A program made the position numbers and the translations under genes. The notes beneath the pieces are model-generated. The model had not been told where the DNA came from and did no database searches. It saw only the letters and a list, made by a program, of their open reading frames with translations. A DNA stretch of 64,000 nt from a phage. The DNA lies in the NCBI GenBank assembly GCA_012490745.1, contig GCA_012490745.1_3925.1; one strand, 5' to 3'. Positions 1 through 58,207 of the stretch are shown here, one piece after another; the first letter of the stretch is position 1; each line of letters begins with the position of its first letter.

Positions 1-84
1 GTACTTTACAAGGGGCTTATAGTTCGATAAAGTAAGCCCCAGATAAAGAGCTTTACCACTAAATCCTAAACTGGAGATTCAAAA
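1..84 (+). promoter_or_regulatory. Intergenic cassette family A: hairpin ggggcttat...taagcccc, then conserved leader agataaagagctttaccactaaatcctaaactGGAGattcaaaaATG
   Basis: Near-identical copies at 1675-1760, 2472-2557, 2807-2891 and a variant at 598-689; SD GGAG 8-9 nt before ATG; TTTACA-17nt-TAAAGT promoter-like spacing overlaps the hairpin. Confidence 0.6.
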
Positions 85-597
85 ATGAAAACTGTAGACG
101 CTACCTTTGAAGTTGTAAAAGAAAAATTTTCCATCATTTACGAAGCAGTTAATTGCTTTGAAGCAAGCCATAATCTTGATAATTGGGAATTTACAGATGA
201 CCATCAAGGCGGTGTGACGATTAAAAATCCTAGCTGTCAGCGTAATGAATTTAAATATGCAATCCCTTTACATTACAGCCTTAAACAGCTTTCAAGTGAC
301 TATGCAAAACAAGGCCGGGAAAACCCATCAAAAGAGGCTTACATCAGCTTACAGAAAGAACTAGAAAGAGATTTAGAGGCTTCAGAATATAACATCGCCG
401 CGAAAGTTGTAGATGCAAACGGTAGCACGGTTTTAGAGAGTTTTTATATTGGTTATGCTTTCGATTGGTGCTATCATGACGGCGATGATTTAGAGGATAG
501 ACTAAAAGAAGAGGTGAACAACGCAGACGCAGAATCTGAAGTATTAGAACGTTTGGAATCGTTGAAAGACTCAGTGATGAATATCTTTAAGAACTAA
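85..597 (+). CDS. hypothetical early protein (170 aa)
   Basis: ORF directly behind cassette with SD GGAG; acidic protein. Confidence 0.6.
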   Translation: MKTVDATFEVVKEKFSIIYEAVNCFEASHNLDNWEFTDDHQGGVTIKNPSCQRNEFKYAIPLHYSLKQLSSDYAKQGRENPSKEAYISLQKELERDLEASEYNIAAKVVDANGSTVLESFYIGYAFDWCYHDGDDLEDRLKEEVNNADAESEVLERLESLKDSVMNIFKN

Positions 598-689
598 ATA
601 GATTTCTTTACACGGGGTTATCAGACTGATAAGATAGCCCCAGATAAAGAGCTTTATTCAAATCAACCCTTAAACTAGGAGATTCTAAA
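598..689 (+). promoter_or_regulatory. Cassette family A variant (hairpin ggggttatcagactgataagatagcccc plus conserved leader)
   Basis: Shares agataaagagcttta...ctaaactaGGAGattctaaaATG with the other cassettes. Confidence 0.55.
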
Positions 690-986
690 ATGAAATTATC
701 AAATCAAGTGCGTGAGAATCTGAGCAAATTACTCAACAAAATTGATTTCATTGAAACATCAAGGAATAGTCATGATGTTATGGAATGGTTACACGGCAAA
801 ATAAAAGGCCGTCGTGTAGTGATTTGCTTATGGAACAGTTGCAGGGAGTATAAAAAACCTGTATTGCAAGTCAATATCTATGATGATACTTTTAAAAGCC
901 CTGTAAAGTCTAAAAACGACTTATTAGAATCCTATGAGATAACTGTAAGTGGCAAAGTATCACGTAAAGAGGAAACACCATGTTAA
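690..986 (+). CDS. hypothetical early protein (98 aa)
   Basis: ORF behind cassette, SD GGAG. Confidence 0.55.
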   Translation: MKLSNQVRENLSKLLNKIDFIETSRNSHDVMEWLHGKIKGRRVVICLWNSCREYKKPVLQVNIYDDTFKSPVKSKNDLLESYEITVSGKVSRKEETPC

Positions 987-1312
987 TGACTGGTATCACT
1001 GCAATCATTGCCATTTTCGCGCTATATAAGGCATATAAAGCCTATAATCTAGCAAATAAGGCAATCACACAGCAGGTTAGAAATAACCTTGTAGAGAGCT
1101 TTCTAGGGCGTCTCAGTGATGAGCAAATAAAGCGGCTAGAGATGAGCTTCAGATACAAAGCGAAAACCTATCAGATAAGTGACATCTTCAAAGATAATTT
1201 TCAGTTAGTTGATGATTATAATTCTCTGATAAATGCTTTAAATGTCAGTGACTTAAAAGACTACTACGCTGTAATTGTTCAAGAGTTGAGCAAACGAAAA
1301 CAAAACTGTTGA
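980..1312 (+). CDS. hypothetical early protein (110 aa), N-terminal hydrophobic segment
   Basis: ATG overlaps upstream stop (translational coupling), SD agaGGAaa; start could be ATG at 986. Confidence 0.5.
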   Translation: MLMTGITAIIAIFALYKAYKAYNLANKAITQQVRNNLVESFLGRLSDEQIKRLEMSFRYKAKTYQISDIFKDNFQLVDDYNSLINALNVSDLKDYYAVIVQELSKRKQNC

Positions 1313-1401
1313 CACTGGTTTTTAGATAGATTAAATTACACATCAACGGGGAGGGAATGACCTTCCCCACTAAATAAAGTCCTAAACTGGAGATTCTGAA
1401 A
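1309..1401 (+). promoter_or_regulatory. Cassette family B: TTGACA-17nt-TAAATT promoter, 5'UTR hairpin ggggagggaatgaccttcccc, conserved leader and SD
   Basis: Sigma70-like -35/-10 spacing; copies at 2170-2267 and 3745-3825 (latter has ttgtca). Confidence 0.6.
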
Positions 1402-1674
1402 ATGTATACTACTAACAACGGTCGCACCTTAAATGTCACCTTGCGTCACTATGTAGACGGTGTGATGTGCTTTGAAGATTTACGGGCTGAGCAACACATC
1501 TTAAATTGGCAAGTTGCAGGACTCCAAAAAACTGCTACAGGATACGGGAAAAAGATTCCAACCAGTTGGAAAGTACACTACGAAGGACGTTTGCGCAGAA
1601 TTTATCAGGATGTGCAAAGCAATAGCGCATCGAGTTACATTATAGTAAAAGGCAAAAAACTGCATTTAATGTAA
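1402..1674 (+). CDS. hypothetical early protein (90 aa)
   Basis: ORF behind cassette B. Confidence 0.55.
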   Translation: MYTTNNGRTLNVTLRHYVDGVMCFEDLRAEQHILNWQVAGLQKTATGYGKKIPTSWKVHYEGRLRRIYQDVQSNSASSYIIVKGKKLHLM

Positions 1675-1760
1675 AGTACTTTACAAGGGGCTTATAGTTC
1701 GATAAAGTAAGCCCCAGATAAAGAGCTTTACCACTAAATCCTAAATTGGAGAACTTAAAA
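1675..1760 (+). promoter_or_regulatory. Cassette family A copy
   Basis: Near-identical to 1-84. Confidence 0.6.
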
Positions 1761-2165
1761 ATGGCTATTAATAACCGTGAATTATCAATTTTAAAAGCAC
1801 GTTTGACCGTTAACCGGATTAATGTTATCACGTCATCAGCACCAGATGAAACACTGCAAAACATTATTGGGAAGATTCAAAGTGTTATCTTAGACGTTGA
1901 AAGCGTAAAAAATTCATTGGCTGACGTTGCAGCAGGTATCACACTAGACGGTGCGCAATATGAAATGTCCGACATGTTAGGCAAATCTAAGGTAATGAAT
2001 AAAGAGTTAGATTTGAAAATGTTCCGATTTGCTGTTAAAGTGTGGCTATCTGTCGAGTATGATGCTAACTTTGCAATCGCTGACTTTTTCGCCACTTGGT
2101 TGCAGCGTAATTTGACTAATCATGACTTCCGCGATATCTGTGATGCAATTTATGCAGAACTCTAA
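1761..2165 (+). CDS. hypothetical early protein (134 aa)
   Basis: ATG at 1761 sits at the conserved cassette position; the ORF-track start 1746 is a TTG inside the cassette. Confidence 0.55.
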   Translation: MAINNRELSILKARLTVNRINVITSSAPDETLQNIIGKIQSVILDVESVKNSLADVAAGITLDGAQYEMSDMLGKSKVMNKELDLKMFRFAVKVWLSVEYDANFAIADFFATWLQRNLTNHDFRDICDAIYAEL

Positions 2166-2169
2166 AAAA

Positions 2170-2267
2170 ATTTTGTTGACACTGGTTTTTAGATAGATTA
2201 AATTACACATCAACGGGGAGGGAATGACCTTCCCCACTAAATAAAGTCCTAAACTGGAGATTCAAAA
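2170..2267 (+). promoter_or_regulatory. Cassette family B copy
   Basis: TTGACA at 2175 plus 5'UTR hairpin, near-identical to 1309-1401. Confidence 0.6.
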
Positions 2268-2471
2268 ATGGCTATTATTAATGGTTTAACCATTGAAACT
2301 ACACACATCAAAGATATCAAAGTTGGCGATATAGTCCTTTCCCACGGCGTAGAAAAAACTGTCACTGCAAAGGATATCAAAGAGGATTCTTTCATGGGTA
2401 GGACTCTCTTCGGTGATTCTTATTGCTTAGGCTATCTTGCAGTTTTAAAAGTTGTCAAAAATAACAAATAA
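2268..2471 (+). CDS. hypothetical early protein (67 aa)
   Basis: ORF behind cassette B. Confidence 0.5.
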   Translation: MAIINGLTIETTHIKDIKVGDIVLSHGVEKTVTAKDIKEDSFMGRTLFGDSYCLGYLAVLKVVKNNK

Positions 2472-2557
2472 AGTACTTTACAAGGGGCTTAAAAGTTGAT
2501 AACTTAAGCCCCAGATAAAGAGCTTTACCACTAAATCCTAAACTGGAGATTCTAAAA
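2472..2557 (+). promoter_or_regulatory. Cassette family A copy (hairpin loop variant)
   Basis: Stem ggggctta/taagcccc conserved, loop differs. Confidence 0.55.
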
Positions 2558-2806
2558 ATGATGAACTACTTTAACATTCCCGATACCTGTAGATTATTGA
2601 CACAAGAAGAAAATTTGGGTAAACCTTTCATTTACCACATGCCAGATAACACGGCAAAAACTTATAGTTACAATGTTAACCGTTTCACCGCATACGCTGC
2701 AAAGAACGGCTATAGGTTGGTTACTCAAAAAGTAATGCTGGTTACAACTGCTGGCGAGATTCCTACAGTTGCAGTCAAACTAGTTTTCTCAAAGAAAGTT
2801 AAATAA
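2558..2806 (+). CDS. hypothetical early protein (82 aa)
   Basis: ORF behind cassette A. Confidence 0.5.
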   Translation: MMNYFNIPDTCRLLTQEENLGKPFIYHMPDNTAKTYSYNVNRFTAYAAKNGYRLVTQKVMLVTTAGEIPTVAVKLVFSKKVK

Positions 2807-2891
2807 AGTACTTTACAAGGGGCTTATAGTTCGATAAAGTAAGCCCCAGATAAAGAGCTTTACTACTCAATCCTAAACTGGAGATTCAAAA
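2807..2891 (+). promoter_or_regulatory. Cassette family A copy
   Basis: Near-identical to 1-84. Confidence 0.6.
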
Positions 2892-3434
2892 ATGAAATGT
2901 TATCACGGAACTACTCAAGAAAATTTCCTCAACCTGATTAATAACGGTGATAAACCATCAGGCGCATGGAATTGTTCGGATATGGACGGCAATTTTTACG
3001 TGTATCCAGAAAATAAAATCTATGGCGACGATGATGAAGAGATAACATCGGAGGGCATTCAGCAAGCTCTAGGGAACGCCACTATTACGGCGGCCTTCCA
3101 GATGAAAACCCAAAATATTGTTATCTTAGAACTCGATATTCCAGATGATGAGCTAAATGATGATTATTCTTGTGATAATATGTCGAGTGTAGCAAGTTTT
3201 ACAGAGTACTTTGATGTAAACTGGATTAAAAAGGTCTATACAACAGAGTTTAACGCTATGTATTCGCCTTTTTGTCTTCCTTCACTGGATAACCCAAATA
3301 TGAACTATCTTGATGAGACATTAGAACTACTTGCTAAAAGTGTTCAACAGTCGGACAGTATTCAGGTTTTTTGTGACATCATGGATACACTGACAGGAAA
3401 CATCGCAGAAGAGGATTTAAAGAGCTTTTTCTAA
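2892..3434 (+). CDS. hypothetical early protein (180 aa)
   Basis: ORF behind cassette A. Confidence 0.55.
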   Translation: MKCYHGTTQENFLNLINNGDKPSGAWNCSDMDGNFYVYPENKIYGDDDEEITSEGIQQALGNATITAAFQMKTQNIVILELDIPDDELNDDYSCDNMSSVASFTEYFDVNWIKKVYTTEFNAMYSPFCLPSLDNPNMNYLDETLELLAKSVQQSDSIQVFCDIMDTLTGNIAEEDLKSFF

Positions 3435-3466
3435 AAACCTATGCAATCACCTTATAAACACTATTT

Positions 3467-3486
3467 AGCCCCTTACAGGGGCTTTT
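3467..3486 (+). terminator. Rho-independent terminator-like hairpin agcccctt-aca-ggggct followed by T run
   Basis: GC stem plus tttt downstream of the 2892-3434 stop. Confidence 0.5.
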
Positions 3487-3500
3487 GGGAGGCTTAAATC

Positions 3501-3734
3501 ATGCTTACAACCGTTTACCTCATCCTTTCTATTTGTAACGGTCATTCATGCGATTTTAAAGGGCTTGAAGAGTTTACAGGAAGTAAAGAAAATGCTATTC
3601 AAGTTTGCCAGATAGCAAGACAAGACTATCCCGCTAGTGATGATATACAATGTTACTTTAAGACAGAAGATGAAGACGGTATCTATTTTGACAGCGTAGA
3701 TGGTCAGTATGAAATTATCATTGAAAAAGACTAG
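3501..3734 (+). CDS. hypothetical early protein (77 aa)
   Basis: ORF with SD gGGAGG; Cys-containing small protein. Confidence 0.5.
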   Translation: MLTTVYLILSICNGHSCDFKGLEEFTGSKENAIQVCQIARQDYPASDDIQCYFKTEDEDGIYFDSVDGQYEIIIEKD

Positions 3735-3744
3735 ACAAGCCTGA

Positions 3745-3825
3745 TAAAAATCTGTAAATTGTCAATCAACGGGGAGGGAATGACCTTCCCCACTAAGTAC
3801 AATCCTTAAACTAGGAGATTCAAAA
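3745..3825 (+). promoter_or_regulatory. Cassette family B copy (ttgtca variant)
   Basis: 5'UTR hairpin ggggagggaatgaccttcccc plus conserved leader. Confidence 0.5.
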
Positions 3826-4167
3826 ATGGCTTATGTAACCGTAATTACCGATAAAGAAAATTCATCTTGGTCAACTCAAGTAAGTGATAAGATGTCACCT
3901 ATGCAGTGCCTAAAATACTTTGAGCAGTGGAACAAAGGCGAGGATGTCAGCCCCTTTCAAGTGATGCAAATCATCCATACAGATAACGAAGGGAATAAAA
4001 CGGTTTTAAATAGTGAGTACTACGCAAGCCGTTTTGAAACTAGAAGTAAAACAATGAAGCTTTTACGTGAATCCGGTTATGCCCATATCGCCGCGCTAAT
4101 CTGGGATGACCTGCTAAAAAGACAGCGTATCAGCTATGTAAAACCTGAAAAAATATTCATCAGTTAA
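3826..4167 (+). CDS. hypothetical early protein (113 aa)
   Basis: ORF behind cassette. Confidence 0.55.
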   Translation: MAYVTVITDKENSSWSTQVSDKMSPMQCLKYFEQWNKGEDVSPFQVMQIIHTDNEGNKTVLNSEYYASRFETRSKTMKLLRESGYAHIAALIWDDLLKRQRISYVKPEKIFIS

Positions 4168-4189
4168 TCAATAACTTACAAAAAACTTT

Positions 4190-4386
4190 TAAAAAAGTGT
4201 TGACAATACCCATTGACATTGGTAACTTTGTTCGAGGGGGTTATCTAAAAGGGATTCACTTAAAAGATTCTTTATAGATAAGCTTAAAAAATTGCTTGCA
4301 ATCAGCTATCAAAACAAGTAAATTACTAATCAACGGGAGGGATGACCTCCCCACTAAATAAAAATCCTTAAACTAGGAGAGTCAAA
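4190..4386 (+). promoter_or_regulatory. Composite region: tandem TTGACA boxes (gttgacaatacccattgacattgg), hairpin gggagggatgacctcccc, conserved leader
   Basis: Two -35-like hexamers 14 nt apart, then family C cassette (taaattactaatcaacgggagg...). Confidence 0.5.
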
Positions 4387-4917
4387 ATGAACAAGTTTAA
4401 AGCTATCAACTTCATTCGTTCAAATGCTGTAATGTCTAAGCCTGTAAAAGATACATATGAATTCCGTTGTAATGGGGTACATTTCGCAACAATCACCAAA
4501 TCAGAAAACGGGGCTTATTACGTTCATCGTCGTAATGTCTCAACCGTTGTAGTCTCTCACTTTATGCAAGCTGTAGCGGAATTATTACCGTTATTCTTAG
4601 AGATTTATCTAGATGAGTGTAAAAACGTTCACAACCACGTTAAAAACCTTTTAAACGGTTATAAAATGGCTTATGAACGTTCTATCAAGTCACTAAACAA
4701 GTTTTACAATGCACCTGCAAATACTGTTTCAATGGCTTATGATGTAAACGGTGAGTTAGTTAGTCTCTTTAAAGTGGAAGAAATTAAACTGTATAATTTA
4801 CGTCCTAGTGGTTACTCTAAGACTCTTGGTGAAGGTTTAACGTTCAATATCAAGAACTTAGAAAAAACTTTAAAAGATATTGAAAAAGATATTGACGAGA
4901 CAATCAAAAGTCTGTAA
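4387..4917 (+). CDS. hypothetical early protein (176 aa)
   Basis: ORF behind cassette, SD aGGAGa. Confidence 0.55.
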   Translation: MNKFKAINFIRSNAVMSKPVKDTYEFRCNGVHFATITKSENGAYYVHRRNVSTVVVSHFMQAVAELLPLFLEIYLDECKNVHNHVKNLLNGYKMAYERSIKSLNKFYNAPANTVSMAYDVNGELVSLFKVEEIKLYNLRPSGYSKTLGEGLTFNIKNLEKTLKDIEKDIDETIKSL

Positions 4918-4982
4918 ATTACTAATCAACGGGAGGCGATAACCTCCCCACTAAATAAAACCCTTAAACTAGGAGATTCAAG
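4918..4982 (+). promoter_or_regulatory. Cassette family C (taaattactaatcaacgggaggNgatNacctcccc...ctaGGAGattcaaNATG)
   Basis: Copies at 4310-4386 and 5247-5311. Confidence 0.55.
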
Positions 4983-5246
4983 ATGGAAAACGTAGAATTA
5001 ACCACACTTTTACAAATTGCAACCGACAAAGAAGATGTAGCATTATTTCACCGTATTGAAAGTGATTTGTTCAATGGTGAAATCATCAAAGAATCTTACG
5101 AAGTTGTCGGATTCAAAGATGGTAAAGCGTTTGGCTTTTTTGACCTCGATAAAGGCAACGCTGTTACAAAATATGATGTTTTATCTTGTGAGATTCTTAC
5201 AAAATACAACGAAAAAAGGCTTGCAACATACGCCAATATGCAGTAA
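4983..5246 (+). CDS. hypothetical early protein (87 aa)
   Basis: ORF behind cassette C. Confidence 0.5.
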   Translation: MENVELTTLLQIATDKEDVALFHRIESDLFNGEIIKESYEVVGFKDGKAFGFFDLDKGNAVTKYDVLSCEILTKYNEKRLATYANMQ

Positions 5247-5311
5247 ATTACTAATCAACGGGAGGGATGACCTCCCCACTAAATAAAACCCTTAAACTAG
5301 GAGATTCAAAA
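5247..5311 (+). promoter_or_regulatory. Cassette family C copy
   Basis: Near-identical to 4918-4982. Confidence 0.55.
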
Positions 5312-5560
5312 ATGGCAACTATCCGCGCTACTGTTAACGAGTTCGGTTTTTCCTCTCTGGATGTTAAATTTGACATTGCAGGCACTGATAACGCCTTTGA
5401 AATGGTGAAATGTCTTATCAGTCAGACCATCAAAGACTATAATCCTTCGGATGAGTTCTGGGAGGAAACAAAACAAGAAGTTCTCAAGGATGGTTATACT
5501 TATCACTATTGGGGAGAAAAAATCGTCTCCCTGTACTACAACAAACAAGATTATAACTAA
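5312..5560 (+). CDS. hypothetical early protein (82 aa)
   Basis: ATG at the conserved cassette position; the ORF-track start 5267 reads through the cassette. Confidence 0.55.
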   Translation: MATIRATVNEFGFSSLDVKFDIAGTDNAFEMVKCLISQTIKDYNPSDEFWEETKQEVLKDGYTYHYWGEKIVSLYYNKQDYN

Positions 5561-5598
5561 TCGACGCAGCGGGGCTATTTAGCCCCAGATACCCTAAC

Positions 5599-5623
5599 AG
5601 CCCCTATTTAAAGGGGCTTTTTT
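5599..5623 (+). terminator. Rho-independent terminator (agcccct-attta-aaggggct + ttttt); a second hairpin at 5571-5586
   Basis: GC stem-loop followed by T run after the last early gene. Confidence 0.6.
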
Positions 5624-5625
5624 AC

Positions 5626-7236
5626 GTCTATCGAATCCTTATACAATCCCTTTCCCTCACCTTTCCAGAATCTTATCAGACCTTAAAAGCAATAACTCTA
5701 TAGTCTACTCTATAACCTCTTATCAAATCAACTTAAATATAAGCCCATAACCCGAAAGGGAAGGGCAACCCCTTAAACGCTCTATAACGCCCTATAACAG
5801 CCTTATCAACCTAACTTAAGGGGTTGCATTAACTCACCCTAAAAAGCCCTTCCTAGAGCTTCCTAGAACCTTAAAAGAATCTTATAAGGGTGTAAGCTTT
5901 ATTATCTCGTTAGCTATCTTGTGAACTACTAAACAAGCCCCTTGATAGTAACTGAAAAGTATGTTATAGGGGCTATAAAGTTACTTCAAAGTTGCTTAAA
6001 AGTTACGTAAATGCTAGCCCCCTTAACATTTTCTTAACAATTTCTTAACAAACCCTACATAGTTATGCTTTTAAGGCACTTGTTAGCAACTTGTTAGCCC
6101 CTTGTTAAATCTCTGTCAAGACCACGTAAAAGCCTTGTAAGAACCTTTGACATAGTCTTTAAAGCCCCTGTAAAGCCCTATAAAGAGGTATCTGTACAGT
6201 TGGGGTGTAATTACTAGGAAGAGGCTTAAAAGAGCTTACAAGGGGCTATAGAGAGCTTTTAAGAGGGCTATTTAGAGAATCACTAAGAAAGAGAGGGAAC
6301 GATAAGAAAAGAGATAGTGACCATGTTAATAGCTTGTTAAAAAGATTAAACACTTGTTAGAAACTTGTTAATTATCTTAACAAAATAACTCTTAAAAATT
6401 AACTTGTTAGCTCTTGTTAGTCATCTGTTAAGACTCTGTAAAGACCATGTATCGTCTGTTAAGAAACTGTTAAGCCCTTGTTAGTTATGTTAAGAATCTG
6501 TTAAGACCTCTGAAGAGATGTTAAGAGATTGAGAGAGTTGTTAAGAGATTGTTAAGGATATTTTAAAATTCTGCAAAGTACTTGTAAGGGAGCTGTTAAG
6601 GGCTACCAAGCAGATATACATCTTCTACAGATATTTTTCAGTTCCTTCAAAGACCCTAAAAAATGACTTGATAGTCCTATTTTATAAAAATTTTAAAAAT
6701 CTGAATAATTACCTATACAGTCTTTCTAAAATACAGGTAATAACAGGCTTATAAGATACCTTGTTAGTACCGTGTTAGACCTTGTGAGATAAGGTCTGTA
6801 AAGATATTCCTGTTAAGTTTGTTAAAACAGTCTATATAGAGGCTTAGTAGCACCTAGTGAACACCTATAGAGAGTATCATAGCTGACATAATGGGTTACT
6901 GTTAAGTAACACAGATAACCTAGAGATTAAGAGGTGTATAGGAGCTTCTAAGAGAGTGTAGAGAGATGGTTAAGGTGATTGTATAGGTTGTTAAGAAGGC
7001 TTGTTAGAAGAGTGTTTAGAGGGCTATTTAGAAGGGCTATACAGAGGGCTATTAAGACCACTAGATAGTTACTAAGATACTATATAGTACTATATAACTA
7101 TATAGAGAGTAAGATTAAGAAGGTTGTTAAGAAGGGTAGATATTTTATTCACATATGATGGTGACCCAGAGGTTGGGACAACCGATAAAATTTTACTCAA
7201 TAAAAAGCCCCCGATTAAGGAGGCTCTTAAGATATT
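5626..7236. repeat. ORF-free region dense in short direct repeats (CTTGTTAG / CTGTTAAG / TGTTAAGA and GGGCTAT(T/A)(T/A)AGA families)
   Basis: No ORF of 60 aa or more on either strand in the track; dozens of 7-9 nt repeat copies, clustered at 6000-6600. Confidence 0.7.
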
Positions 7237-7860
7237 TTAAATCAGTGTTTCCAGAACTGTTTTTAGGGATGACTTGGTTGTCTGATAAAAATGAGTGAAT
7301 CCGTTGTTGTTATCGAATATCTGCATCATGATATCATCTCCCTTGATTGGGTACACTCGGATATCATAGTGAAAACCATTAAAGACACAAGAACCACTAC
7401 AGAATGCACTAAAGTCAGCCACTGAGATATACTCTTCATGTCCTGTGATTTTTATACAAACACCTTTACTCGGTCTCTTAGGGTTGATATCTTCCATCAC
7501 AGACATACTCTGTCCACCAAGAGATACCATAGTGACCACTTTACGGTTCTTCTGTTTAAAGTACATCTTAACTTTCTGCAAAGTGTCTTCATAGAATGGA
7601 TAAGACCTTTCTACAAAGATTCCTTCAAGTGGCTCTTTACCATTTTCAACTTCTCGGTTATGCCGTACTGCAAAGATAATTTGTTCGAACCAGTCAAGAT
7701 TTTCTTCGGAGAGTGCTTCCCGAACATCCTTCCAGTCAAGTACTAAGTAGTTACCTTCAACTTCTTTTAAGTTATCTTTTTCCATATCTATCACACCATT
7801 ATCGTAAAACTTGATATTCTGGTACTGCGAATTTATTACTATTGTTCTTGATGAGGTCAT
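7237..7860 (-). CDS. hypothetical protein (up to 207 aa; true start probably an internal Met near 7785)
   Basis: Long ORF; its 5' end overlaps the upstream gene by 62 nt. Confidence 0.5.
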   Translation of the reverse strand: MTSSRTIVINSQYQNIKFYDNGVIDMEKDNLKEVEGNYLVLDWKDVREALSEENLDWFEQIIFAVRHNREVENGKEPLEGIFVERSYPFYEDTLQKVKMYFKQKNRKVVTMVSLGGQSMSVMEDINPKRPSKGVCIKITGHEEYISVADFSAFCSGSCVFNGFHYDIRVYPIKGDDIMMQIFDNNNGFTHFYQTTKSSLKTVLETLI

Positions 7861-15400: not shown

Positions 15401-15474
15401 GGCAGACCTACAGCTTTAACTAAGATGGTACAGTAATCCATACAACAAGTCAAGAACTATTGCAAGTTAAAAAA

Positions 15475-15516
15475 GTTGTTGACAAAGTACTTGACAAGGT
15501 GTAGGCTTATAAATAC
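15475..15516. promoter_or_regulatory. Divergent promoter region with tandem TTGACA boxes (gttgttgacaaagtacttgacaaggtg)
   Basis: A-tract plus two -35-like hexamers 13 nt apart; near-identical motif at 58173-58207. Confidence 0.5.
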
Positions 15517-17545: not shown

Positions 17546-17662
17546 TTCTACATAGAAACGAAATGAGAGCTTTTCTAAGATACTGAAAAATATTTTAAAA
17601 AAGTTCTTGACAACCACTAAAAAATAATGTTAAAGTGGTTACATAGAGTTTGAAAAGTTTAT

Positions 17663-58145: not shown

Positions 58146-58172
58146 ACATTACTGCAAAAAATTATAAAAAGC

Positions 58173-58207
58173 AAGTTGACAATGTACTTGACAAGGTGTT
58201 AATCTTT
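58173..58207. promoter_or_regulatory. Divergent promoter region with tandem TTGACA boxes (aagttgacaatgtacttgacaaggtg)
   Basis: 25-nt motif almost identical to 15475-15500; lies between divergent gene blocks. Confidence 0.5.

What the first reader, a model, noticed from the sequence alone, without database searches (positions are those of the whole stretch)
1..5320. Thirteen small early genes, most preceded by a repeated promoter-hairpin-RBS cassette (three families)
Family A (1-84, 598-689, 1675-1760, 2472-2557, 2807-2891), family B (1309-1401, 2170-2267, 3745-3825) and family C (4310-4386, 4918-4982, 5247-5311) each pair a GC hairpin with a conserved leader ending ...cctaaactGGAGattcaaaaATG. 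Family B has a clean TTGACA-17-TAAATT promoter upstream of the hairpin. Identical translation-initiation regions on unrelated ORFs suggest cassette-mediated gene shuffling, as described for promoter-stem-loop cassettes in T4-type phages; the hairpins may set mRNA stability or act as RNase sites.
Basis: partly seen in the sequence, partly recalled or inferred. Interest (0 to 1): 0.6.

Follow-up and report, generated by a model that had tools for sequence, protein, structure and literature searches.

The report
Repeated promoter-hairpin-RBS cassettes, Felix O1-like phage
In this Felix O1-type phage, eleven of thirteen small early genes of unknown function each sit behind a near-identical ~95-base cassette (host-type promoter, RNA hairpin, standard ribosome-binding leader), and comparison with related phages shows genes are gained and lost exactly at these cassettes, as already described for T4-type phages.

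Summary
Window 1-5620 is the early left-arm ORFan array of a Felixounavirus (95% identical to phage KhF1). It holds 13 ORFs, each in a different PHROG of unknown function. Eleven are preceded by a 90-105 nt cassette found nowhere else in the 64 kb.

The three families reduce to two architectures, and all eleven carry a sigma-70-like promoter, not only family B.
- Type A (5 copies): TTTACA-17-TAnnnT, with a GGGGCTTA/TAAGCCCC hairpin inside the spacer and -10. In read-through RNA this extends to a ~20-bp interrupted helix that encloses the promoter.
- Type B/C (6 copies): -35, 17 nt, TAAATT, 10 nt, then the hairpin, placing it about 2-4 nt from the predicted 5' end.

G.U versus A.C counts point to selection on plus-strand RNA structure.

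Across 14 relatives, homology breakpoints cluster in cassettes (16 of 26 clusters against 17.6% expected). Deletions join same-type cassettes into hybrids. Across 58 sources, the leader precedes 24 protein families.

This matches the PeSL cassettes of T4-type phages, in a different phage subfamily (Ounavirinae) and without detectable sequence similarity. Parts were already noted as direct repeats (Felix O1, wV8) and as an SAS-like 26-bp repeat (Mordin). I call it a new member of a known kind, of moderate interest. Promoter activity and the hairpin's role remain untested.

The parts
1..87 (+). Cassette A1, type A. The window cuts off its 5' flank. -35 TTTACA 5-10, -10 TAAAGT 28-33, apical hairpin 12-40, leader/SD 65-76, ATG 85.
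85..597 (+). ORF of 170 aa, phrog_4190, unknown function. Orthologue of Felix O1 ORF16, which is maximal at 5 min.
596..692 (+). Cassette A2, a divergent type A. -35 TTTACA 607-612, -10 TAAGAT 630-635, hairpin GGGGTTAT/ATAGCCCC 614-641, ATG 690.
690..1312 (+). Two overlapping ORFs: 690-986 (98 aa, phrog_4401) and 980-1312 (110 aa, phrog_4375). The second has no cassette. The pair travels together in all relatives.
1300..1404 (+). Cassette B1, type B. -35 TTGACA 1309-1314, -10 TAAATT 1332-1337, hairpin GGGGAGGG-AATGA-CCTTCCCC 1348-1368, SD 1389-1392, ATG 1402.
1402..1674 (+). ORF of 90 aa, phrog_3436.
1671..1764 (+). Cassette A3, type A. Extended interrupted helix 1671-1731 (outer 7 bp, middle 5 bp, apical 9 bp) enclosing -35 1680-1685 and -10 1703-1708. 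ATG 1761.
   Evidence: (fold -28.5 kcal/mol, z -3.0)
1761..2165 (+). ORF of 134 aa, phrog_4327. Orthologue of Felix O1 ORF20, which is maximal at 5 min.
2167..2270 (+). Cassette B2, type B. -35 TTGACA 2176-2181, -10 TAAATT 2199-2204, hairpin 2215-2235, ATG 2268.
2268..2471 (+). ORF of 67 aa, phrog_3623. Absent from Felix O1, Mordin and mistaenkt.
2469..2560 (+). Cassette A4, type A. -35 2477-2482, weaker -10 TAACTT 2500-2505, hairpin 2484-2512, ATG 2558.
2558..2806 (+). ORF of 82 aa, phrog_9030. The unit A4->A5 is missing in Mushroom, HY02, UAB_Phi87 and nataliec.
2804..2894 (+). Cassette A5, type A. -35 2812-2817, -10 2835-2840, hairpin 2819-2847, ATG 2892.
2892..3734 (+). ORFs 2892-3434 (180 aa, phrog_3303) and 3501-3734 (77 aa, phrog_4640). 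They are separated by a promoter-less hairpin at 3468-3484 that abuts the SD GGGAGG.
3723..3828 (+). Cassette B3, type B. -35 TAGACA 3732-3737 and spacer lie in the 3' end of ORF 3501-3734. -10 TAAATT 3755-3760, hairpin 3771-3791, ATG 3826.
3826..4167 (+). ORF of 113 aa, phrog_4318. Orthologue of Felix O1 ORF21, which is maximal at 5 min.
4296..4389 (+). Cassette C1, type B/C. -35 TTGCAA 4296-4301, -10 TAAATT 4319-4324, hairpin GGGAGG-GATGA-CCTCCC 4335-4351, ATG 4387.
4387..4917 (+). ORF of 176 aa, phrog_4725. Orthologue of Felix O1 ORF22, which is maximal at 5 min. Its last codons form the -35 and spacer of C2, and its stop codon lies in the -10.
4883..4985 (+). Cassette C2. -35 TTGACG 4892-4897, -10 TAAATT 4915-4920, hairpin 4931-4948, ATG 4983.
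4983..5246 (+). ORF of 87 aa, phrog_7022. The unit C2->C3 is missing in Felix O1, UAB_Phi87, nataliec, dune, SP116 and Mushroom.
5212..5314 (+). Cassette C3. -35 TTGCAA 5221-5226, -10 TAAATT 5244-5249, hairpin 5260-5276, ATG 5312.
5312..5560 (+). ORF of 82 aa, phrog_4559. Last gene of the array.
5599..5624 (+). The only canonical intrinsic terminator of the region (AGCCCCTATTTAAAGGGGCT + TTTTTT). It equals Felix O1 t23 and ends the array.
   Evidence: PMC3185647 Table 2

Best explanation
The region is a 'hyperplastic' array of small accessory early genes of a Felix O1-like myovirus. Almost every gene is an autonomous expression unit built from a standard cassette. The cassette runs: stop codon of the previous gene, host sigma-70 promoter, G+C-rich RNA stem-loop, A/U-rich leader, GGAG Shine-Dalgarno, 8 nt, ATG.

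There are two designs.
- Type B/C. The hairpin begins exactly 10 nt after the -10. Transcripts started at the cassette would therefore carry it 2-4 nt from their 5' end, the position of a 5'-terminal stabiliser. Transcripts coming from upstream also carry it.
- Type A. The promoter is buried in a ~20-bp interrupted helix. The stop codon and -35 lie in the 5' arm, the -10 in the apical loop, and +1 to +25 in the 3' arm. A transcript started there lacks the 5' arm and has an open leader. Only read-through RNA from the upstream gene can fold the helix. The helix would then act as an insulator between units, by attenuation, endonucleolytic processing or 3'-end protection.

Because the cassettes are 85-100% identical over 60-100 nt, they also serve as homologous-recombination substrates. 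Cassette+ORF units are therefore deleted, inserted, replaced and occasionally moved without disturbing the expression of neighbours. This is the PeSL mechanism described for T4-type phages.

Shown here: the repeats, promoter-like conservation, conserved foldability with an RNA-type substitution pattern, breakpoints and hybrid junctions at cassettes, and restriction to Ounavirinae.

Inferred: promoter activity, transcription start positions, and what the hairpins do.
For: Repeats and their restriction to 1-5314.

Promoters:
- All 11 window cassettes align on -35, a 17-nt spacer and -10.
- In 177 unique type-A cassettes from 58 sources, TTTACA was the search anchor. The informative signal is the -10 at the fixed 17-nt spacing: it keeps T1 (95%), A2 (95%) and T6 (95%) while positions 3-5 vary freely.
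- 180 unique B/C/d cassettes were selected as having exactly 10 nt between the -10 slot and the hairpin. They read TTGnnn-17-TAAATT-like, with T1 89%, A2 96% and T6 96%.
- Felix O1 orthologues ORF16, 20, 21 and 22 peak 5 min after infection (PMC3185647 Table 3).

Hairpins:
- 83 type-A copies (29 variants) and 89 B/C/d copies (37 variants) all fold, at -6 to -17.5 kcal/mol.
- The extended type-A helix folds at -28.5 kcal/mol, z = -3.0. The RNA from the predicted start is unstructured, z = -1.2.
- RNAalifold recovers the three-part helix.
- The outer stem is paired in 86% of cells, against 31-48% when the partner is slid.
- One pair shows a compensatory change: G-C in 58 sequences, T-A in 9.
- There are 108 G.U cells against 2 A.C cells inside the helix.

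Recombination:
- Breakpoint clustering, p = 7e-7.
- Same-type cassette-to-cassette deletions with hybrid junctions. For example, the Felix O1 cassette before the 113-aa gene is the left half of B2 joined to the right half of B3.
- Presence/absence of single units, plus one translocated ORF family.
- 24 protein families behind the leader, with mixed cassette types within a family.
- A Felixounavirus (Bas63) recombines efficiently with 95-nt homology arms (PMC11482910).

Analogy: the definition of PeSLs, including the stem-loop between or overlapping -35/-10 or just downstream of the -10, the stop codon at one end and SD+ATG at the other (PMC2839356).
Against: - No transcript mapping exists for any Felix O1-like phage in the searched literature. 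Promoter use and start sites are therefore predictions.
- No hairpin is followed by a U-tract, so classical termination is unlikely and the 'insulator' role is unspecified.
- All intergenic space here is cassette. Selection for whole-gene indels alone would therefore also place breakpoints in cassettes. The argument for homologous recombination rests on the scar-free hybrid junctions.
- Cassettes within one genome are no more alike than cassettes of different genomes (0.87-0.88 against 0.86-0.87), and orthologous positions are slightly more alike (0.90-0.92). Frequent intragenomic conversion is therefore not demonstrated.
- The compensatory change in the outer stem may be a single inherited event.
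- Three Felix O1 orthologues (ORF17, 19, 23) peaked at 25 min, not 5 min.
Confidence: 0.7

Rival explanations
1. Translation-signal-only reading. The conserved element that matters is the leader/RBS, a 'start-associated sequence' as in cluster K mycobacteriophages. The array is transcribed as one long early mRNA from the strong promoter upstream of the array. The promoter-like hexamers are incidental, and the hairpins are processing or stability elements of that polycistronic RNA.
For: - The Mordin genome note describes the 26-bp leader as SAS-like with unknown role (PMC4611695).
- The leader is the most widely shared part. It also occurs without hairpin or promoter, for example at ASO1A 3093, HY02 4384 and SP116 10479.
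- GGAG-to-ATG spacing is fixed at 8 nt in 259 of 387 cassettes.
- Only one real terminator ends the array.
- The type-A helix can only exist in read-through RNA, so read-through must occur.
Against: - The TAnnnT pattern at exactly 17 nt from TTTACA, inside a hairpin loop whose other positions vary, is hard to explain without -10 function.
- B/C cassettes keep TTGnnn-17-TAAATT even where the -35 has to be encoded within the upstream ORF.
- A-rich tracts lie upstream of the -35.
- PeSLs of the same build are active promoters (PMC2839356).
Confidence: 0.15
2. The hairpins are rho-independent terminators, so each cassette is a terminator-promoter pair that makes strictly monocistronic mRNAs. Some GenBank records annotate them this way.
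For: - ASO1A annotates WebGeSTer 'terminators' on the B-type hairpins directly after the promoters.
- KhF1, KhF3 and XTG1 annotate them as terminators.
- A PeSL stem-loop reduced lacZ read-through as strongly as rrnB T1 (PMC2839356).
Against: - None of the 11 hairpins is followed by a T-run. The consensus scan finds a single terminator in 7 kb, at 5599.
- In B/C cassettes the hairpin lies downstream of the cassette's own promoter, so an efficient terminator would abort the cassette's own transcript.
- KhF1 places the features on the non-coding strand.
Confidence: 0.1
3. DNA-level reading. The inverted repeats are protein-binding palindromes or cruciforms rather than RNA structures. Examples are operators for a phage repressor that shuts off early promoters, or recombinase sites. 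In type A the two flanks, GTAAAGTACTTTAC and ATAAAGAGCTTTAC, are each near-palindromic. They sit over the -35 and over +5 to +20, a classic operator layout.
For: - The 5' flank is a perfect 14-bp palindrome and a 12/14 direct repeat of the 3' flank (alignment; sequence).
- CCCCAGATAAAGAGCTTTA is almost invariant across genera.
- The PeSL authors speculated that GGGG...CCCC could be a protein target (PMC2839356).
Against: - Substitutions in the stems are those tolerated in RNA of the sense strand: 108 G.U cells against 2 A.C.
- Pair 12-61 is T.G in 70 of 75 sequences.
- In the AGATT/GATTT variant each flank loses its own palindrome while the pairing between flanks is kept.
- Hairpin loops and stem sequences differ between types while the foldability is kept.
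Confidence: 0.08
4. The cassettes are small selfish mobile elements (MITE-like or homing-associated) that spread by their own transposition.
For: Many copies in one genome region. The copies carry inverted repeats.
Against: - All copies have the same orientation. Each sits exactly between a stop codon and a start codon, and all lie in this one array.
- There are no target-site duplications and no copies elsewhere in 64 kb.
- Gene order is conserved across genera.
Confidence: 0.02

Closest known systems
PeSL (promoter-early stem-loop) cassettes of T4-type phages (Arbiol et al. 2010, PMC2839356; Comeau et al. 2014, PMC4122927)
   Same: [quoted passage not shown]
- A sigma-70-like early promoter with an A/T-rich upstream region.
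- A GGGG...CCCC stem-loop either between/overlapping -35 and -10 (like type A here) or just downstream of the -10 (like type B/C).
- Many copies concentrated in a hyperplastic region, in front of ORFans.
- Indels between related phages bounded by the cassettes.
   Different: - Different phage lineage: Ounavirinae with ~88-kb genomes, not T4-like.
- No sequence similarity detectable by blastn. All 250-290 database hits to the cassettes are Ounavirinae or records containing such sequence.
- Only ~8-16 copies per genome, in one array, rather than ~50.
- The translation-initiation region is itself near-invariant.
- In type A the helix extends around the whole promoter.
- Promoter activity, terminator activity and mini-circles have been shown for PeSLs but not here.
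Start-associated sequences (SAS/ESAS) of cluster K mycobacteriophages, the comparison made for phage Mordin (PMC4611695)
   Same: A short conserved sequence including the RBS lies immediately upstream of the start codons of a subset of genes. According to my own knowledge of the cluster K description, it is accompanied upstream by inverted repeats. Its function is unknown.
   Different: - Unrelated sequence and host.
- SAS are scattered over the genome and are not tied to sigma-70 promoters.
- Here the leader is one part of a larger promoter-hairpin unit confined to one array.
- A role for SAS in indels has not been described (own knowledge, not checked here).
RNase III processing hairpins of the T7 early region (own knowledge of the T7 literature)
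   Same: Intergenic, ~20-bp interrupted helices lie between small early genes transcribed by host RNA polymerase. After cleavage, the hairpins left at 3' ends stabilise the upstream messages. The type-A extended helix has comparable size and internal loops.
   Different: - T7 sites do not contain promoters.
- Cleavage of the Felix O1-type helices is purely hypothetical.
- B/C hairpins (6-8 bp) are too short for RNase III.
5'-terminal stem-loop mRNA stabilisers such as the ompA 5' UTR (own knowledge)
   Same: A stable hairpin lies within a few unpaired nucleotides of the 5' end. The B/C hairpin starts 10 nt after the -10.
   Different: The start site is not mapped, and no half-life data exist.

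Membership tests
PeSL-type regulatory cassette | Sigma-70-like early promoter (-35, 16-18 nt, -10) within the element | tested here: met
   All 11 window cassettes align on the promoter elements. The TAnnnT conservation pattern holds in 177 type-A and 180 B/C/d unique cassettes. This is sequence evidence only; activity was not measured.
PeSL-type regulatory cassette | Stable stem-loop (often GGGG...CCCC) between, overlapping or next to the promoter hexamers | tested here: met
   Hairpins fold in all 172 cassettes examined. Type A has the hairpin in the spacer and -10. Type B/C has it 10 nt downstream of the -10.
PeSL-type regulatory cassette | Intergenic, bounded by the upstream stop codon and the downstream SD+ATG, ~100 bp, repeated | tested here: met
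PeSL-type regulatory cassette | Concentrated in a hyperplastic region in front of ORFans | tested here: met
   The cassettes occur only at 1-5314 of 64 kb. The 13 ORFs have no Pfam hit and fall in 13 different PHROGs of unknown function. Gene content varies between relatives.
PeSL-type regulatory cassette | Indels and replacements between related phages have their junctions in the cassettes | tested here: met
   16 of 26 breakpoint clusters fall in cassettes against 17.6% expected, and the junctions are hybrid cassettes.
PeSL-type regulatory cassette | Demonstrated promoter activity, terminator/attenuator activity, and formation of mini-circles | not testable with these tools
   Needs reporter fusions and inverse PCR on infected cells.
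PeSL-type regulatory cassette | Sequence homology to, or occurrence in, T4-like phages | tested here: not met
   blastn of both cassette types against 50,697 phage records hits only Ounavirinae (Escherichia, Salmonella, Shigella, Citrobacter and Erwinia phages) and a few oddly labelled records. IMG/VR hits all lie on contigs of 53-94 kb. The element is therefore filed as PeSL-like by architecture, not as a homologue.
Start-associated sequence (SAS) | Short conserved motif including the RBS at a fixed distance upstream of the start codons of a subset of genes | tested here: met
   Leader CCT(T)AAACT(A)GGAG, with 8 nt to the ATG in 259 of 387 cassettes. Noted for Mordin in PMC4611695.
Rho-independent terminator | G+C-rich hairpin immediately followed by a U-tract | tested here: not met
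   The scan finds only the terminator at 5599-5624. The hairpins are followed by AGATAAAG or ACTAAATA.
Known RNA family (Rfam) | Match to a curated covariance model | tested here: not met
   There is no credible hit in 1-7500. The best is mir-980 at 21 bits against a gathering score of 47.
RNase III processing site | About two turns of dsRNA, cleaved by RNase III in vivo | not testable with these tools
   The type-A helix has ~20 bp with internal loops. Cleavage is unknown.

The most novel reading that the evidence does not exclude
The type-A cassette may be a 'self-insulating promoter'. A sigma-70 promoter is deliberately buried inside a ~20-bp RNA helix that can form only on transcripts arriving from the upstream gene. 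Host RNase III, or another structure-specific nuclease, would cut or stall those read-through RNAs there. That would leave the upstream message with a protective 3' hairpin, while the cassette's own transcript starts inside the 3' arm and stays unstructured. This would combine T7-style mRNA processing and PeSL-style promoters in one element. Each ORFan would then receive a defined monocistronic message wherever the cassette lands.
Probability: 0.2. Interest if true: 0.6.

Novelty: new member of a known kind. Interest (0 to 1): 0.4.

Why it matters
This shows that the PeSL principle is not a peculiarity of T4-like phages. The principle is a standard, portable promoter-hairpin-RBS unit that both expresses accessory ORFans and provides the homology for swapping them.

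An unrelated cassette sequence with the same architecture does the same job in Felix O1-like phages of Escherichia, Salmonella, Shigella, Citrobacter and Erwinia. That suggests convergent evolution of a general mechanism for turnover of host-takeover and anti-defence genes.

Practical consequences:
- It corrects database annotation, where terminators are placed after promoters or on the wrong strand, and repeats are left unexplained.
- It predicts the early promoters that the Felix O1 genome paper could not find.
- It points to natural 'landing pads' for engineering therapeutic Felix O1-like phages.

Tried and rejected
- RegB idea. Mushroom and mistaenkt label the gene after rIIB 'T4 RegB-like' or 'endoribonuclease'. 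A RegB-type nuclease cutting the conserved GGAG would have explained the leader. Pfam gives only a sub-threshold SLT (lytic transglycosylase) hit and no RegB hit, and other records call the gene a lysin. Dropped.
- Rfam. No family matches.
- Classical terminators. There is no U-tract.
- Concerted evolution. I expected cassettes within a genome to be more alike than orthologous cassettes. They are not: 0.87-0.88 against 0.90-0.92. Pervasive intragenomic gene conversion is not supported, and the evidence for recombination rests on the junctions.
- Cassette copies elsewhere in the window. None found.
- Homologues outside Ounavirinae. None found.
- Transcript-mapping data for Felix O1-like phages. 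None in the library. The wV8 and VpaE1 papers do not discuss promoters or repeats.
- A lambda nut/boxB-like antitermination reading of the B/C hairpin was considered. No boxA-like sequence is evident next to it in the sequence, and to my knowledge no N-like protein is known for this phage group; neither was formally searched. Not pursued.
- I did not run the official pair-counting tool. Pair statistics come from my own script.

Full report
**What the region is.** Window 1-6000 is 95% identical over its full length to Enterobacteria phages KhF1 and KhF2. It matches 256 phage records, essentially all Felix O1-like myoviruses (Ounavirinae) of Escherichia, Salmonella, Shigella and Citrobacter. It corresponds to Felix O1 ORF16-ORF23 and ends at the counterpart of Felix O1 terminator t23. 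The + strand carries 13 ORFs of 67-180 aa. None has a Pfam domain, and each belongs to a different PHROG of unknown function. The ORFs are real, conserved and mutually unrelated.

**The observation.**
- Aligning the 11 upstream regions puts a -35 hexamer, a 17-nt spacer, a -10 hexamer, a hairpin, an A/U-rich leader, GGAG and ATG in register.
- The 23-nt leader has 4 matches at <=3 mismatches, against 0 in shuffles.
- Profile HMMs of the cassettes find exactly these 11 sites, and nothing else, in 64 kb.
- No other repeat family of this kind exists in the rest of the window.
- No Rfam family matches.

**Anatomy.** There are two architectures.

Type B/C (B1-B3, C1-C3):
- The layout is TTGACA, TTGCAA, TTGACG or TAGACA; then 17 nt; then TAAATT; then 10 nt ending in CAAC; then a 6-8-bp G+C-rich hairpin; then ACTAAATAAAG; then CCT(T)AAACT(A)GGAG; then 8 nt; then ATG.
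- The hairpin is either GGGGAGGG-AATGA-CCTTCCCC or GGGAGG-GATGA-CCTCCC.
- In B3, C2 and C3 the -35 and spacer are the last codons of the upstream ORF, and the TAA stop lies inside the -10.
- B and C differ only in the hairpin variant. Orthologous genes carry B in one phage and C in another.

Type A (A1-A5):
- The promoter is TTTACA-17-TAAAGT. The hairpin GGGGCTTA...TAAGCCCC occupies the spacer, with the -10 in its loop and 3' arm.
- Folding the read-through context shows that the hairpin is the tip of a longer interrupted helix: GUAAAGU.ACUUUA / apical stem / UAAAG.AGCUUUAC. It has about 20 bp, -28.5 kcal/mol and z = -3.0.
- This explains the almost invariant AGATAAAGAGCTTTAC downstream of the hairpin.
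- The predicted start, 6-9 nt after the -10, lies in the 3' half. The cassette's own RNA therefore cannot form the helix and is unstructured (-7.1 kcal/mol, z = -1.2). Only RNA arriving from upstream can fold it.

**Are the promoters and hairpins under selection?** I collected cassettes from the window, 14 annotated relatives in three genera, and 43 IMG/VR stretches.

- Type A, 177 unique cassettes. These were collected by anchoring on TTTACA, so its invariance is built into the search. The informative result is the hexamer 17 nt downstream. It keeps T1, A2 and T6 at 95% each, while positions 3-5 take all four bases. This is the sigma-70 -10 signature, inside a loop that otherwise varies.
- Type B/C/d, 180 unique cassettes, selected for a -10-to-hairpin distance of exactly 10 nt. 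They keep T1 89%, A2 96% and T6 96%.
- All 172 hairpins from the 15 annotated sources fold despite 66 sequence variants.
- RNAalifold on 75 unique type-A elements returns the three-part helix.
- The outer stem is paired in 86% of cells, against 31-48% when the partner is slid.
- Pair 11-62 switches between G-C (58 sequences) and T-A (9).
- Inside the helix there are 108 G.U cells but only 2 A.C cells. Pair 12-61 is T.G in 70 of 75 sequences.

That asymmetry is expected for an RNA structure of the sense strand. It is not expected for a DNA cruciform or a protein-binding palindrome. A caveat applies: the compensatory change may trace to one event that was inherited or copied.

**Shuffling test.**
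- blastn of the window against the 14 relatives gives 59 internal homology ends. Of these, 36 lie within cassettes, which make up 17.6% of the region.
- Collapsed to 26 distinct breakpoints, 16 are in cassettes (p = 7e-7). Two further large clusters sit 4-8 nt outside my limits, at the stop-codon edge of the repeat.
- The missing segments run from a cassette to the next one of the same type:
  - 2273-3765 (B2->B3, four genes) in Felix O1.
  - 2561-2803 (A4->A5) in Mushroom, HY02, UAB_Phi87 and nataliec.
  - 4986-5243 (C2->C3) in Felix O1, UAB_Phi87 and nataliec.
- ASO1A has an extra 52-aa ORF inserted at the B1 leader, with the leader duplicated.
- The junctions are single, intact hybrid cassettes. 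The Felix O1 cassette before the 113-aa gene has the B2 promoter half and the B3 leader half, with the crossover in the shared hairpin segment.
- The gene map shows conserved order with presence/absence of individual cassette+ORF units. There is one replacement (HY02) and one ORF family at two different positions.
- Over 58 sources, 456 leader-led ORFs fall into 24 protein families, one of them a leader-like match outside the array. Single families carry A, B, C or d cassettes in different genomes.
- A Felixounavirus recombines efficiently with 95-nt homology arms (PMC11482910).

Two cautions apply. All intergenic DNA here is cassette, so selection for whole-gene indels alone would also put breakpoints there. 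Also, cassettes within a genome are not more alike than orthologous ones, so frequent intragenomic conversion is not shown.

**Distribution.** Both cassette types hit only Ounavirinae among 50,697 phage records: Felixounavirus, Mooglevirus, Suspvirus, and for type A also Erwinia phages. The type-A core occurs in IMG/VR only on contigs of 53-94 kb.

**Prior knowledge.**
- The Felix O1 paper listed the 57-bp (type A) and 39-bp (type B promoter) sequences as unexplained direct repeats. It did not count them among its promoters, and it stated that early regulation was unknown (PMC3185647).
- The wV8 record annotates them as DR features.
- The Mordin note described the 26-bp leader as SAS-like with unknown role (PMC4611695).
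- Some records auto-annotate a promoter followed by a 'terminator', or terminators on the wrong strand.
- No paper in the library links Felix O1 to PeSLs.
- The PeSL papers define exactly this architecture for T4-type phages (PMC2839356).

**Mechanism and verdict.** The best-supported reading is that these are PeSL-like autonomous expression cassettes that also act as recombination linkers. I consider the promoter function likely. Recombination at the cassettes is well supported by the junctions. The hairpin's role is open:
- For B/C I favour a 5'-terminal stabiliser that also marks read-through RNA.
- For A I favour a read-through-specific insulator, possibly an RNase III-type processing site.
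- Classical termination is unlikely, because there is no U-tract.

This is a new member of a known kind, with one notable design feature: a promoter enclosed by a read-through-only helix. Interest is moderate.

Noticed in passing
window 5620-7236: About 1.6 kb has no ORF of 60 aa or more. It lies between the terminator of the early array and the 3' end of the first minus-strand gene. It is packed with short repeats of 10-11-bp period (CTTGTTAG / TGTTAAGA) and a 31-nt unit repeated three times at 6413-6509. Relatives annotate repeat_regions here. This looks iteron-like (possibly an origin or another protein-binding array), but its function is unknown.
   Followed up: partly
window 4200-4285: A promoter-like TTGACA-17-TAACTT (4200-4228) is followed by a long imperfect hairpin (4237-4285, -14.4 kcal/mol). 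No ORF lies behind it. Mordin and mistaenkt have a 46-aa leader-led ORF at the same position. It may be a remnant of a lost unit or a small RNA.
   Followed up: partly
window 3468-3500: The hairpin AGCCCCTTACAGGGGCT plus TTT directly abuts the SD GGGAGG of ORF 3501-3734, with no promoter. This is a third kind of intergenic structure. It lies inside the two-gene unit 2892-3734, which is always inherited together.
   Followed up: no
window 5570-5592: The hairpin GGGGCTATTTAGCCCC is followed by AGATACC. This resembles the 3' side of a type-A cassette (GCCCCAGATAAAG) without promoter or leader. It sits just before the true terminator and may be a decayed cassette.
   Followed up: no
window 15468-15502, 17584-17618, 58165-58199: A different repeated promoter-like motif carries two TTGACA boxes (TAAAAAAGTTGTTGACAAAGTACTTGACAAGGTGT). 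Two copies flank the start of the tRNA cluster region.
   Followed up: no
L008 134-727 (mistaenkt_28) and its Mushroom homologue gp088: The gene downstream of rIIB is labelled 'endoribonuclease' or 'T4 RegB-like' in some records and 'putative lysin' in others. Pfam gives only a sub-threshold SLT transglycosylase hit and no RegB hit. The RegB label looks unsupported.
   Followed up: partly
L001 2909-3067 (ASO1A_017); L007 4156-4368 (HY02_016); L003 7400-7597 (Mordin_114): These are examples of cassette-led ORFs absent from the window. ASO1A_017 is a 52-aa ORF inserted at the B1 leader. HY02_016 is a 70-aa ORF that replaces the 170-aa gene. Mordin_114 is a 65-aa ORF found at the start of the array in ASO1A, KhF1 and SP116 but in mid-array in Mordin.
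   Followed up: partly
GU169904.1 Staphylococcus phage SA1 (hit H144): A record labelled as a 147-kb Staphylococcus phage carries a 96.6%-identical type-A cassette and five places of similarity. The record probably contains Felix O1-like sequence, through a mixed assembly or mislabelling.
   Followed up: no
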